A stretch of DNA of 50,930 bases, counting the filler, from Sphacelaria rigidula (taxonomy: Eukaryota): the NCBI GenBank assembly GCA_964200075.2. It is 2 parts of 2 records of this genome, joined end to end, with 100 filler letters (N's around TTAATTAATTAA, not from the genome) between each part and the next. Parts side by side here need not be neighbours in the genome. Positions count along the whole stretch, not along the records: positions 1 to 25,419 come from CAXNAA020000167.1; 1 more part is not named here. One strand, written 5' to 3'. The translations under genes and the position numbers were made by a program. Shown here piece by piece: positions 1,139-22,782 of the stretch. The notes under the pieces were generated by a model that saw only the letters and a program-made list of their open reading frames with translations, was not told the DNA's origin and made no database searches. Position 1 is the stretch's first letter, and each line of letters begins with the position of its first letter.

Positions 1139-4100
1139 CTAGGTTCTGATGCCTTGTGTTACAGCGCCGTTGCCACTCGACACCAACCCAAGAGTCTAGA
1201 GGTTAGGGGGGGGCGTATCGGGGTATTAGTGTATACTTCCTCGTCAGGACGAACGGGATGATATGGGGTTCACAGGGCTGGATTCATATTTTTCGCTGGC
1301 AATCGCATGCAAGACTTGTAAGTATGAGCTACATATTTGTGACGGCGCACTGTCTGTATTGCCGAAGATAACAAGCCGACCTGCAGTCGCTTCGTCTGAT
1401 CTTCAAGATCCATCTGCCGTTTCTCTTCAAGCGCGGTTAGTCGAATTGTCAGCTCCCGAACCTCTTGCGTCAACCTCATCTCGCGCGCACTCTGCTCGCT
1501 ACGCCACACCTGACCAGTATCACATGGAACGCCAGCGCGACCGACGCAACACGAACGAAGCAAAAGCAGCAACCAGGTGACAAGTGATCCCATGTTCTCA
1601 AGCCTCAAGTGGCTGCGTATACCGTTCAATTCCGAAATTCCTACCCGTCAAAATTGTGGGGCGCACGAAGCTTACCGCCGAAATCTACCCTGTAAGCTTG
1701 TGCCATCTGCCACGCGACGCACATACTACGCCACCCTTGCCATACGCGATCGAGCACAGCAAACTAGAGTACCAAATGGTTGGACTCTGTAGCACAAGGC
1801 CGAGAGGGAGTTATGATCTCGTTTTGTTGTCTCACTCACCTGATTTTCTCCCCTTTCGATCGCCACCGTTTCTTGGACGGCAGAAACGTCCGCAGAAAGA
1901 ATATCCAAGCGTTTACCCTGCTCAGAGACCCTCCCCTCAAGAGCCGCAGTCTCTCGATTATGGATCTGTAGGGAGGAGTTTTCACCATGGACGTCGGGCC
2001 GAAGAAGAGATGACCGCTTGAATGAGTTCTAGAACACGTTAAATGTGAGGGCAGACTCAGTTCTTGAAAAAAAACTAGCATACTTAAGAACACGAAACGA
2101 AAACCAATTAGGTCAAAACCGACTGTTGCTACAAAAGTAAGGGATTATGTTGGTCCTGAGCGATATAGCGCGTCCATGTCAGGCATGGTATAAACATCGG
2201 AGATATCGAAAAAAACTGCGCAAGGATGCAGGCTGTATATCACAAGAACACTACCTGCTGAATAGATTGACGAGGCTGTTCGCTTCTCACTTTCGGACCA
2301 ACTCCATTATCAAAGACTGCACGTAGTATAGTTTAATATCAACATGAAAGCATATCGCAAAGAGTCAACCTGTGGCTCCAACAACACGCATGTCGCACCA
2401 TCTCGCTGAAAAGCCTGATAGCCGTACACTGTACTTACGCGGAGGGTCTCCAGTGCAGTGCTCACTGTCGCCTCTAAAGACCCGAGTTTCTCAGAAGCCG
2501 TACTAACGCCCTCCCCTATAGCCTCCGCTCGAGCCTCCAGTCGTGCTAGTCGGTCATCTCGAGCCATTTCGCTTGTACGGACGTCAGAGTCCAGATGCTG
2601 CCAATTTGTACCGGGGAGTAAATCAGCGTATTGACAGAGTTTCGTAATTTTCGCCGATCGTGTCCTCGCCAATAAGTTGACCACCCCACTGCTTCGAGCT
2701 ATGTAACCGTTTCAGGGCCTGGCACTCTCCTTGGCCGTGGCATTTCATGGAAAGGGTGGTATAACAGGGTCTACAACGAGGGGGAAATCGCTGGTCGGGG
2801 ATGCAAATGCTAGCTTGGAAAGAGATCGTCAATGACCTTCCCCCACCCGCTGGCATCAGTCTGTTCATGACCCAGGTGTTATGTTCCCGGAGAGGAAACG
2901 CTACCAAGACTTGAGGAACATTCCACTCCTCTTGCTTGTATCTCGTCATGTCTCAAGGGTCTATAGACGAACTTCGACATGACGTTTGACTGGCATGATC
3001 CGGGAATTCACTATCTGCGCGCGCCAAGGTGATGTCAAACGTCAAGTAGGAATTCGGACTACACTGTTAGACAGGAACGGTATGTGATGGTGTTTTCCTT
3101 CTATGCACAGCCCTCCTTCTCCCTGTGTACCTGAAGCACGCGCTATGGTTTATGACCTGGCGCCTTACGCATGCGCGGGTTAATGATCTCCAGGGGATGC
3201 CCAAGATCCCAGGTTGATGGGGATTTACCTGGAACGCGGCCAGCAGGGTGAGCAGAACTCGAGAGTGAGACACCGCCTTCCTGCCGGTAGAGGGATCCTT
3301 CCACACGAGCGACGGTGCCACCTTCTCCACCTGGAATAAAATAGACGAGGAGAGAACATCCGTGGGCATCCGGTCTCTTGTTTCTTCGTCTCGTTTTATC
3401 TACACTGGATGCAATGCCGTGCGGTGCAGTATCGTCAAGTCGATAGCACGCGAGACGCCGCGAAACATGGAATCAAAGTCCCATGGGCACGAAATCCGGA
3501 GTTCCGTCGCAAAAACCTAAGAGCCGAGTATTCTGCATTCTTGCGTCCGTTTGTCCACCACCATACGCTATGCCCGATGCCCAAGGTCATCATCTTCATA
3601 CGCGAGAGGTACGAAAACGTTCTGGTGCCAAAACGCCAGGGCGGACTTCGATCAGTCACGGCGGAGCGAACAAAGGGTGACTCGCTGAGTGCTTCAAGGC
3701 TATTTTTGCTATACACGAGCTTGCCTGCTGAGCAACGAGCCCGACTTGGCGGAAATCCGGCTCAAGACCGTACGCGTGTGATGCCTCCTTGGTCCACCCG
3801 TAGCTTGCCACGTCCAAATTTCTGATTGCGTCCATCGCCTGCTCCCTTCCCTGTTCGCCGAACTGATTTATATCTCGCACGATACCCTTGTCAGATAGTA
3901 TTAATACCTGGCAAAGATAGTGTGGACCCGCTGTGAGTGTGCGTCGCTTGTTTGCTGGGTGGATGGTTGGTGGAGACTATTTTGCCGGGCGAAGGATACG
4001 GAGGAGGTTGACGTGCTTAGATGGTACCTAGCGTCTTACATCGAAGGATGTTGTGCACCTGCACACCCAGAACTGCATATTTCCGCGAAAGAACGATGAA

Positions 4101-22782: not shown

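What the first reader, a model, noticed from the sequence alone, without database searches (positions are those of the whole stretch)
1139..22782. Intron-rich eukaryotic gene encoding a phage tail-spike/fibre-like protein with an S74 chaperone
Seen: 17 exons scattered among short ORF fragments splice with matching phases into an open frame of at least ~1237 aa. Domain order is beta-strand-rich repeats, then VGIG/GxGT fibre modules, then S74 domain, then ~150 aa coiled coil. Established: a C-terminal S74 chaperone that folds a trimeric beta-helix is the architecture of phage tailspikes and fibres (e.g. K1F endosialidase); the best-studied eukaryotic S74 proteins are MYRF-type transcription factors. 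Inference: this is an old, domesticated phage- or virus-derived trimeric fibre, fully intronised and apparently intact despite an ~11-kb TE-filled intron. It could serve as a host structural, adhesion or extrusome-like filament. This is the best candidate in the window for an undescribed system.
Basis: partly seen in the sequence, partly recalled or inferred. Interest (0 to 1): 0.88.

Follow-up and report, generated by a model that had tools for sequence, protein, structure and literature searches.

The report
Spliced algal gene, viral-fibre S74 domain
An expressed, intron-rich gene of a eukaryote (probably an alga) encodes a long beta-rich protein that ends in the folding domain viruses use to build three-stranded tail fibres, followed by a coiled coil; whether its two halves are always joined into one protein is not yet settled.

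Summary
The gene is real. It lies on the minus strand. Contigs of four runs (X6-X9) skip 11 intervals that are all GT-AG (one GC-AG), including a 10,293-base intron that carries reverse-transcriptase and integrase remnants. One reading frame stays open across all these junctions.

My model has 17 exons and 1281 aa, and it is incomplete at the 5' end. The S74 domain is confirmed by a Pfam hit of 23.9 bits against a cut-off of 22. A phage profile control and the Atlas neighbours agree. About 145 residues rich in heptads and free of proline follow it.

Exons A and Y have relatives (34-98% identity) in other assemblies, and their similarity stops exactly at the exon edges.

Open points:
- Intron 17654-17036, which links the beta-rich half to the S74 half, is not among the listed joints. 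Contigs of 3 of 4 runs read through its donor.
- The 5' exons (at least 826 nt) are not placed.
- The catalytic lysine position holds valine.
- No NDT80 domain, transmembrane segment or viral neighbour was found.
- No viral relative of the N-terminal part was found.

Verdict: a new variant of a known kind.

The parts
22376..22782 (-). Exon A, the first placed exon (135 aa, beta-rich). At least 826 nt of further 5' transcript is not placed.
   Evidence: The donor at 22376 is joint 22153|22375, seen in 4 of 4 runs. Contig pieces end at 22785 and their records run on for 826 nt (X6) and 837 nt (X9). Seven relatives lose similarity at GV[KE]|V.
21798..22154 (-). Exon B (119 aa)
   Evidence: Joints 22153|22375 (4 of 4 runs) and 21296|21794 (2 of 4 runs). 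GT-AG checked.
20770..21300 (-). Exon C (177 aa, includes a Pro-rich stretch)
   Evidence: Joints 21296|21794 (2 of 4) and 20407|20768 (4 of 4).
20224..20409 (-). Exon D (62 aa)
   Evidence: Joints 20407|20768 and 20085|20221, each in 4 of 4 runs.
19844..20088 (-). Exon E (81 aa)
   Evidence: Joints 20085|20221 and 19529|19844, each in 4 of 4 runs. A weak Phage_spike hit, E 0.038, lies below the cut-off.
19307..19529 (-). Exon F (74 aa)
   Evidence: The acceptor is a listed joint. The donor at 19307 is inferred: it is the only tested choice that keeps the frame open, and it fits the length of X6 record 2. This joint is not among the 15 listed.
18095..18344 (-). Exon X (83 aa, holds the single VGIG motif). 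The acceptor is of the NAGNAG type (18347 or 18344).
   Evidence: Contig piece 18093-18342 and joint 17868|18093 in 4 of 4 runs. Frame test.
17655..17870 (-). Exon Y (72 aa)
   Evidence: The acceptor is a listed joint (4 of 4 runs). The donor at 17655 (A|GTGAGA) is inferred from two relatives, P0009 and P0010, which are conserved only between the acceptor and ...DGP[SG]E.
17036..17654 (-). Unconfirmed intron (619 nt). It links the beta-rich half to the S74 half. If retained, it gives an in-frame TGA at 17550-17548.
   Evidence: Not among the listed joints. Contigs X7 17279-17810, X6 17421-17868 and X8 17397-17868 read through the donor. It holds 10 in-frame stops and two TGTAA motifs, at 17512 and 17408.
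16885..17035 (-). Exon Z (50 aa)
   Evidence: The donor is joint 16357|16884 (2 of 4 runs). The acceptor at 17035 is inferred: it is in frame with donor 17655. Codon score is +0.26 inside the exon against -0.41 for the 62 codons upstream in the same frame.
16204..16358 (-). Exon AA (52 aa)
   Evidence: Joints 16357|16884 and 15345|16203, each in 2 of 4 runs.
15209..15346 (-). Exon AB (46 aa, 138 nt, in frame).
   Evidence: Joints 15345|16203 and 4914|15208, both in X6 and X9.
4916..15208 (-). 10,293-base intron holding a LINE-type reverse transcriptase, an LTR-element integrase remnant and a microsatellite block
   Evidence: Joint 4914|15208 in 2 of 4 runs. RVT_1 on 6204-6872 and rve on 14459-15064. 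Tandem repeats at 11731-12296.
4737..4915 (-). Exon AC (60 aa, holds GFGTGS), just upstream of S74
   Evidence: Joints 4914|15208 (2 of 4) and 3905|4735 (4 of 4).
3725..3907 (-). Exon AD: first part of the S74 domain. The Ser codon is at 3895-3893. The codon at the canonical Lys position (3880-3878) is GTG, Val.
   Evidence: Pfam PF13884, E 5.2e-5, 23.9 bits against a cut-off of 22. Phage profile 9.5 bits, reached by 0 of 2000 shuffles. The top 3 named Atlas clusters are all PF13884. Codons read.
3229..3330 (-). Exon AE: rest of the S74 domain (34 aa), reached through a GC-AG intron
   Evidence: Joint 3329|3724 in 4 of 4 runs. GC..AG is found at shift +1. The contig pieces end at 3229.
1271..2597 (-). 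Predicted exons AF (2597-2439), AG (1965-1840) and AH (1509-1271, including the stop): a coiled-coil-like tail
   Evidence: Predicted from frame and splice sites only. Codon scores are +0.32 (AF), +0.22 (AG) and +0.16 (first 45 codons of AH); rival segments score -0.40 and -0.21. The heptad score is highest at aa 1101-1250, with no proline. X6 record 1 runs on 1107 nt beyond 3229, outside the stretch laid.

Best explanation
This is a transcribed, spliceosomally spliced host gene of a eukaryote, probably an alga. It has at least 17 exons spread over more than 21.5 kb.

The full-length product is at least 1281 aa, arranged as follows:
- a long beta-rich N-terminal and stalk region with no known family (about 1010 aa);
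- an S74 intramolecular-chaperone domain (about 95 aa, split by a GC-AG intron);
- a proline-free, heptad-rich tail of about 145 aa, plus a short end.

Proposed mechanism (inferred, not shown). As in the K1F endosialidase and MyRF, three C-terminal S74 domains and the helices behind them associate. They set the register in which the upstream beta-rich chains fold into one trimeric fibre. The position of the general-base lysine holds valine. I therefore expect the domain not to cut itself off but to stay on as a permanent trimerisation and anchoring module, extended by the coiled coil.

Intron 17654-17036 is often retained. Retention ends the frame at 17550, so the same locus would also give an S74-less product or a transcript destined for decay.

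The S74 module is most likely of viral ancestry. Fibre proteins of polinton-like or giant viruses of protists are the closest described analogues. The gene as a whole now behaves as a conserved cellular gene family.
For: SHOWN
- Eleven gene joints have GT-AG or GC-AG ends on one strand, in contigs of 4 runs. Intron bins carry depth only where exons lie.
- A single frame is open across all the joints.
- S74 is supported by Pfam above its cut-off. A profile of 9 phage domains aligns the helix and the GxxAQ core, and 0 of 2000 shuffles reach its score. The Atlas's three best named clusters are all PF13884.
- The S74-like sequence pattern carries on across the joint seen in the RNA-like contigs into exon AE.
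- Exon A has 7 relatives and exon Y has 2, and their similarity ends at the exon edges.
- The neighbouring gene is an intron-split SNF2 helicase.
- No copy of the gene lies elsewhere in the window.

FROM PAPERS (passages read)
- Ser-Lys dyad: S587/K592 in MyRF equals S911/K916 in endoNF. K592A is not cleaved. The C-terminal triple coiled coil drives trimerisation (PMC8326128).

INFERRED
- One ORF across Y-Z. The supports are a conserved GTGAG donor, the in-frame acceptor at 17035, and an exon-like codon score for Z against an intron-like score upstream.
Against: - No listed joint spans 17655|17035 (15 listed, 3 not shown). Contigs of X6, X7 and X8 run 234-376 bases past the donor with no differences.
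- By my arithmetic on the depth bins, X6 covers the whole interval at the depth of the flanking exons. The unspliced form is therefore at least common.
- The runs are labelled RNA only by the tool's guess.
- S74 scores only 1.9 bits above the cut-off. It has no phmmer hit in the PDB and no true tblastn hit in phages.
- The trimeric fibre fold, the loss of cleavage and the viral origin are untested.
- Exons A and Y have no viral relatives.
- The N-terminus, and so any signal peptide, is unknown.
- The last three exons are predictions. X6 record 1 has about 580 more bases than my model's 524 nt of exon below 3229 (AF 159 + AG 126 + AH 239). About 460 remain even if the transcript runs on to about 1145, just past the TGTAA at 1163.
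Confidence: 0.6

Rival explanations
1. Two products, not one. The mature RNA keeps 17654-17036, so the beta-rich protein ends at the TGA at 17550. Transcripts may also end at a TGTAA-type poly(A) site near 17400. The S74 and coiled-coil half is then a separate gene or a downstream ORF.
For: Contigs end at 17421 (X6), 17397 (X8) and 17279 (X7), after reading through the donor. TGTAA lies at 17408. X8 shows no depth between about 17038 and 17396 by my bin arithmetic. No joint is listed there.
Against: The only in-frame ATGs for the second half (near 17204 and 17186) lie in 62 codons that score intron-like, -0.41. The next Met is inside S74. Two relatives conserve the sequence only up to a GTGAG at the same point, as expected for a donor. 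Both halves have equal contig depth in X6 (7.23 and 6.34). Donor 17655 and acceptor 17035 are in frame.
Confidence: 0.22
2. A decaying unitary pseudogene. It was once a single fibre gene and is now interrupted between exons Y and Z. It is still transcribed and spliced, but no full-length protein is made.
For: The read-through contigs and the 10 in-frame stops in 17654-17036. AH's last 33 codons score intron-like.
Against: Both halves are free of stops over 804 and 303 codons. Splice sites at all 11 listed joints are canonical. A 98%-identical ORF in another assembly keeps exon A open.
Confidence: 0.1
3. An unaltered endogenous viral element (polinton-like virus, giant virus or phage/bacterial contamination) rather than a host gene.
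For: Viral fibres are the usual place for S74. One Atlas neighbour cluster is mostly Nucleocytoviricota.
Against: There are at least 12 spliceosomal introns, with retrotransposons inside one of them. None of the 10 downstream ORFs scanned with Pfam is a viral hallmark. There is no relative in IMG/VR for three queries. G+C is even across the window outside the repeat block.
Confidence: 0.03
4. A MYRF-type membrane-bound transcription factor (NDT80 DNA-binding domain, S74, transmembrane helix).
For: MYRF is the only well-studied cellular family with S74. The 5' exons are unknown.
Against: No NDT80 at E <= 1 in the 14 exons scanned or in 10 upstream ORFs. At least 1012 residues lie before S74, where MYRF has its DNA-binding domain next to the stalk. 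No transmembrane-grade segment is present. The lysine of the dyad is missing.
Confidence: 0.03

Closest known systems
C-terminal intramolecular chaperone domain of phage tailspikes and fibres (Peptidase S74, PF13884; K1F endosialidase as the type)
   Same: A domain hit above the Pfam cut-off. The position is near the C-terminus, behind a long beta-rich region. The Ser-Asp start, the following helix and the GxxAQ core all align.
   Different: - All 9 phage references have S[DN]xxxK. Here the +5 position is Val, and there are 4 extra residues before the helix.
- About 170 residues follow the domain, where phage proteins end.
- The gene has spliceosomal introns.
- There is no sequence hit to any phage record.
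Fibre proteins of polinton-like viruses, virophages and giant viruses of protists with a terminal S74 (PMC12220804; Heterosigma akashiwo virus, PMC13659346)
   Same: A eukaryotic setting. A very long modular protein with a single S74 at or near the C-terminus.
   Different: - Those proteins sit in viral elements and carry recognisable modules (laminin G, collagen, adenovirus fibre, FhaB). Here there is no known module, no viral neighbour and many introns.
- No relative was found in IMG/VR.
- I saw only passages of these papers. Their supplements were not open.
MYRF / MrfA membrane-bound transcription factors
   Same: A cellular, intron-bearing gene with an S74 domain followed by helices that can form a triple coiled coil (PMC8326128).
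   Different: No NDT80 domain, no transmembrane helix and no lysine of the dyad. The region before S74 is five or more times longer.

Membership tests
Peptidase S74 / intramolecular chaperone auto-processing domain (PF13884) | Profile match at or above Pfam's gathering score | tested here: met
   23.9 bits against a cut-off of 22, E 5.2e-5, profile positions 7-50 of 58. Supported.
Peptidase S74 / intramolecular chaperone auto-processing domain (PF13884) | Catalytic serine at the start of the domain | tested here: met
   The Ser-Asp pair at codons 3895-3890 is the only SD before the helix. That it aligns with profile position 1 is an ungapped extrapolation.
Peptidase S74 / intramolecular chaperone auto-processing domain (PF13884) | General-base lysine five residues after the serine (K916 of endoNF, K592 of MyRF) | tested here: not met
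   Ser+5 is Val. Counted back from the helix instead, the position is Asn. The nearest basic residues are Lys at +2 and Arg at +6. This rests on one sequence only, because relatives of this exon could not be fetched.
Peptidase S74 / intramolecular chaperone auto-processing domain (PF13884) | Homotrimer formation and self-cleavage | not testable with these tools
   The spliced protein cannot be handed to the fold tools. Expression and mass spectrometry are needed.
MYRF-type factors | NDT80-type DNA-binding domain before S74 | tested here: not met
   No hit at E <= 1 in exons A-AE or in 10 ORFs at 22963-25797. The 826-837 nt of 5' transcript that are not placed remain untested.
MYRF-type factors | Transmembrane helix after S74 | tested here: not met
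   The best 19-residue hydropathy mean is 1.44, and it lies inside S74. The 3' exons are predictions.
Viral (polinton-like or giant virus) fibre gene | Lies in a viral element without spliceosomal introns | tested here: not met
   Spliced joints. The neighbour is an SNF2 helicase and no viral family was found in the 10 downstream ORFs scanned.

The most novel reading that the evidence does not exclude
A family of cellular genes in algae has taken over a viral fibre-folding module and changed its use. The S74 domain has lost its self-cleaving lysine and gained a long coiled coil, so it stays on as the permanent trimerisation foot of a host-made filament (a surface, scale or extrusome-type fibre). 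A regulated, often retained intron decides whether the beta-rich body is made with or without that foot.
Probability: 0.25. Interest if true: 0.8.

Novelty: new variant of a known kind. Interest (0 to 1): 0.62.

Why it matters
In cells, S74 has been studied only in MYRF-type transcription factors. Everywhere else it belongs to viral fibres and spikes.

A conserved, expressed, intron-rich cellular gene that couples S74 to more than 1000 residues of unknown beta-rich protein would be a second, independent cellular use of this module. It would show how viral structural parts become host genes. It would also offer a natural test of whether an S74 domain without the dyad lysine can still act as a trimerisation chaperone.

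My searches found no description of such a host gene. In one search, 7 papers held the terms and 6 were listed. In one search, 67 held a term and 40 were listed. In one search, 4 were listed. I judged these from titles and abstract starts only. I read passages of PMC12220804, PMC13659346 and PMC8326128.

Tried and rejected
SEARCHES THAT FOUND NOTHING
- no whole genome is held for this window.
- word-based protein searches found none of 988 and none of 14 candidates. I had set lengths to 'longer', which shut out the short ORF calls later found. These two blanks therefore mean little.
- PDB phmmer with exon AD gave 0 hits at E <= 10.
- tblastn against phages gave 7 records at E 2-9. None was a fibre, so I take them as chance.
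- Searches (IMG/VR; JGI metagenomes): no relative of exons AD, A or Y.
- Atlas search with exon C had a best score of 0.88 and no family.
- PHROGs gave only E 0.039 and E 0.082.
- AlphaFold of exon A with 8 sequences gave pLDDT 33.6. It is unusable, so no fold search was run.
- blastp of the model against itself found no internal repeats.

RUN SEARCH
- no RNA holder is listed on record. X6-X9 are labelled RNA by guess only.

MODELS I DROPPED
- my first dynamic-programming gene model chained transposon ORFs into the gene and was discarded.
- The acceptors at 17084 and 17154 and the donor at 17608 for the Y-Z intron were dropped in favour of 17655|17035.
- The 3' variant using 1773|1640, which would add a hydrophobic stretch, was dropped on codon score.
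- I looked for 5' exons through 'CAG|GT' donors and codon scores. No candidate could be trusted.

NOT USED
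Full report
WHAT IS THERE

The window is eukaryotic DNA with about 50% G+C, apart from an A+T-rich repeat block. A Pfam scan of ten of them gave one hit above cut-off. Peptidase_S74 matches the fragment at 3976-3659 with E 5.2e-5 and 23.9 bits, against a gathering score of 22, over profile positions 7-50 of 58.

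TRANSCRIPT EVIDENCE

A search for public runs found 9 runs in 3 studies that hold the stretch. One run's record reads 'algae metagenome', and the organism name is coded. Four small runs of one study (X6-X9) held 0.34-0.40 of the sampled words. Their label as RNA is the tool's guess only.

I laid their contigs on 2900-22899. The contigs skip 11 intervals inside the gene. After shifting each cut within the ambiguity the tool states, 10 are GT..AG and 1 is GC..AG on the minus strand. Seven joints are seen in 4 of 4 runs and four in 2 of 4 runs. Four further listed joints lie in transposon sequence (5139-6922), and 3 joints were not shown.

Depth bins that hold only intron have no depth, and bins with an exon have about the depth expected for the exon alone. 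For example, bin 18908-19574 in X6 gives 2.14 x 667 / 6.34 = 225 bases, against exon F's 223. I take the contigs as spliced RNA. A processed DNA copy is not formally excluded, because table 5b was not given.

THE LARGE INTRON

The joint 4915|15209 skips 10,293 bases (X6 and X9). The skipped part holds an RVT_1 reverse transcriptase (6204-6872, E 2.8e-9), an rve integrase core (14459-15064, E 3.6e-9) and a microsatellite block at 11731-12296.

That exon keeps the frame.

READING FRAME

The first five exons, joined as the contigs join them, are open in one frame and full of stops in the other two. The same holds for Z-AE. The stop frequency in the confirmed introns is 193 of 5297 codons. On that basis, 804 and 303 open codons have chance probabilities of about 1e-13 and 1e-5.

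The donor of exon F (19307) and the acceptor of exon X (18344, a NAGNAG site with 18347) are not among the listed joints. They are the combination that keeps the frame open, and they fit the 275 bases that X6 record 2 has upstream of 18342.

My model has 17 exons and 1281 aa without a start codon. The last three exons are predictions. Codon scores favour them over the rival exons: +0.32, +0.22 and +0.16 against -0.40 and -0.21.

THE WEAK JOINT

For one protein, an intron must remove 17654-17036, which has 10 in-frame stops, the first at 17550. No listed joint does this. Contigs read through the donor: X7 17279-17810 (depth 10.2), X6 17421-17868 and X8 17397-17868, all with no differences from the window.

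My bin arithmetic is inference. It suggests that X6 covers the whole interval at about the exon depth. It also suggests that X8 has nothing between about 17038 and 17396.

Four points speak for an intron:
- Two relatives of exon Y from other assemblies (P0009 at 69% and P0010 at 50% identity) are conserved only from the acceptor to ...DGP[SG]E and then diverge. This is exactly where this window has A|GTGAGA.
- That donor is in frame with the acceptor at 17035.
- Exon Z, which was not used for training, scores +0.26. The 62 codons before it in the same frame, which hold the only candidate start codons, score -0.41.
- X8's piece of exon Z ends at about 17037 by the arithmetic above.

I put one protein at roughly 0.65, two products at 0.22 and decay at 0.1. 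A frequently retained intron would reconcile both sets of facts.

CONSERVATION

A full HMMER scan of 1.84 billion representatives with exon A gave 8 proteins at E <= 0.001. Seven align over the exon, at 98, 78, 51, 40, 39, 38 and 34% identity. One (P0007) is a repeat protein matched over only 37 residues, which I set aside as chance.

All seven are single-member clusters from Logan assemblies, on contigs of 2.4-14 kb. They are ORF calls on genomic DNA. Their similarity stops at GV[KE]|V, the donor the contigs use. So the exon, and its intron position, is kept in several genomes or paralogues.

THE S74 DOMAIN

The domain is split by the GC-AG intron. The sequence after the joint continues the S74-like pattern (hydrophobic VxxVxP, then a helix).

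I built a profile from the C-terminal domains of K1F and eight other phages. It aligns residues 34-77 of my 175-residue stretch (the helix and the GxxAQ core) at 9.5 bits, which 0 of 2000 shuffles reach; the best shuffle scores 8.9. The Atlas's three best named clusters for exon AD are all PF13884, at 0.89, 0.86 and 0.85, and one of them is mostly Nucleocytoviricota. At these scores this is a lead only.

All 9 phage references carry S[DN]xxxK. In K1F this is S911 and K916, the dyad that equals S587/K592 of MyRF, and K592A abolishes cleavage (PMC8326128, passages read). Here the serine and aspartate are present, but Ser+5 is valine. Counted back from the helix instead, the position is asparagine, because there are 4 extra residues. 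On one sequence this is suggestive, not proof, that self-cleavage is lost.

THE REST OF THE PROTEIN

- None of the exons scanned has another Pfam family at E <= 0.01. Phage_spike at E 0.038 and Creb_binding at E 0.13 are the only other rows.
- There is no PHROG hit better than E 0.039.
- blastp finds no internal repeats, and VGIG and GFGTGS occur once each.
- Composition is rich in Ser, Gly, Ala, Val and Thr.
- A crude heptad score is highest at residues 1101-1250, where there is no proline.
- No 19-residue window reaches transmembrane hydropathy.
- Ten ORFs upstream (22963-25797) have no Pfam hit below E 0.2.
- The neighbour on the plus strand is an intron-split SNF2-type helicase, and no viral family was found in the 10 ORFs scanned there.
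- The gene has no second copy in the window.

COMPARISON WITH WHAT IS KNOWN

The architecture (a long beta-rich body, then S74 near the end) matches phage spikes. It matches even better the large modular fibre proteins of polinton-like viruses, which are integrated in many protist genomes (PMC12220804), and a 1,529-aa FhaB-plus-S74 protein of a Heterosigma virus (PMC13659346).

This gene differs from all of them in five ways: spliceosomal introns, transcription from a host context, no recognisable body module, a missing dyad lysine and a long coiled-coil extension. It differs from MYRF in lacking NDT80 and a membrane helix.

I file it as a new variant of a known kind. The S74 membership holds at the profile level, with one defining catalytic feature not met.

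LIMITS

- Spliced sequence could not be given to the fold, complex or large search tools, so the trimer model is untested.
- The supplements of the papers were closed.
- The organism is known to me only as a coded name and through one 'algae metagenome' record.

Noticed in passing
window 5816-8861 (minus) and depth bins 4901-6901: A LINE-like element with a reverse-transcriptase ORF sits inside the big intron. The contigs of X6-X9 give it depths of 32-320, far above the gene's 5-10, so copies of this element seem strongly transcribed.
   Followed up: partly
window 17810 and 18347/18344: X7's 532-base contig starts exactly at 17810, behind an AG. That is 60 bases (20 codons, in frame) inside exon Y, and the contig's depth is about twice that of the upstream piece. 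This may be an alternative acceptor. The exon X acceptor is a CAGCAG (NAGNAG) site.
   Followed up: no
window 3331-3724: This intron has GC-AG ends (GCAAGC...TTCCAG). It splits the S74 domain and is spliced in 4 of 4 runs.
   Followed up: yes
window 277-872: A tandem array with a 63-base unit and 9.6 copies lies just 3' of the gene. X6 record 1 is long enough that the transcript may run into it.
   Followed up: no
window 17512, 17408 and 1163 (minus strand): TGTAA motifs lie inside the often-retained intron and about 110 bases after the predicted stop. X8's contig ends at 17397. If this organism uses UGUAA as its poly(A) signal (recalled for green algae, not tested here), intronic polyadenylation is possible.
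   Followed up: no
window 39971-46324 (plus): An intron-split SNF2-related helicase gene. The Pfam SNF2-rel_dom hit is at 25.0 bits against a cut-off of 24.9 on one exon.
   Followed up: partly
window 25420-25463 and 25476-25519: Two runs of 44 N (assembly gaps) lie in the region where the missing 5' exons might be.
   Followed up: no
window 24190-24800 (minus): Short ORFs here repeat a peptide-like motif (..QP.EI.T..L..I..). Tandem Repeats Finder reports a 42-base unit at 24535-24645. Whether this is a coding repeat or a satellite is unclear.
   Followed up: no
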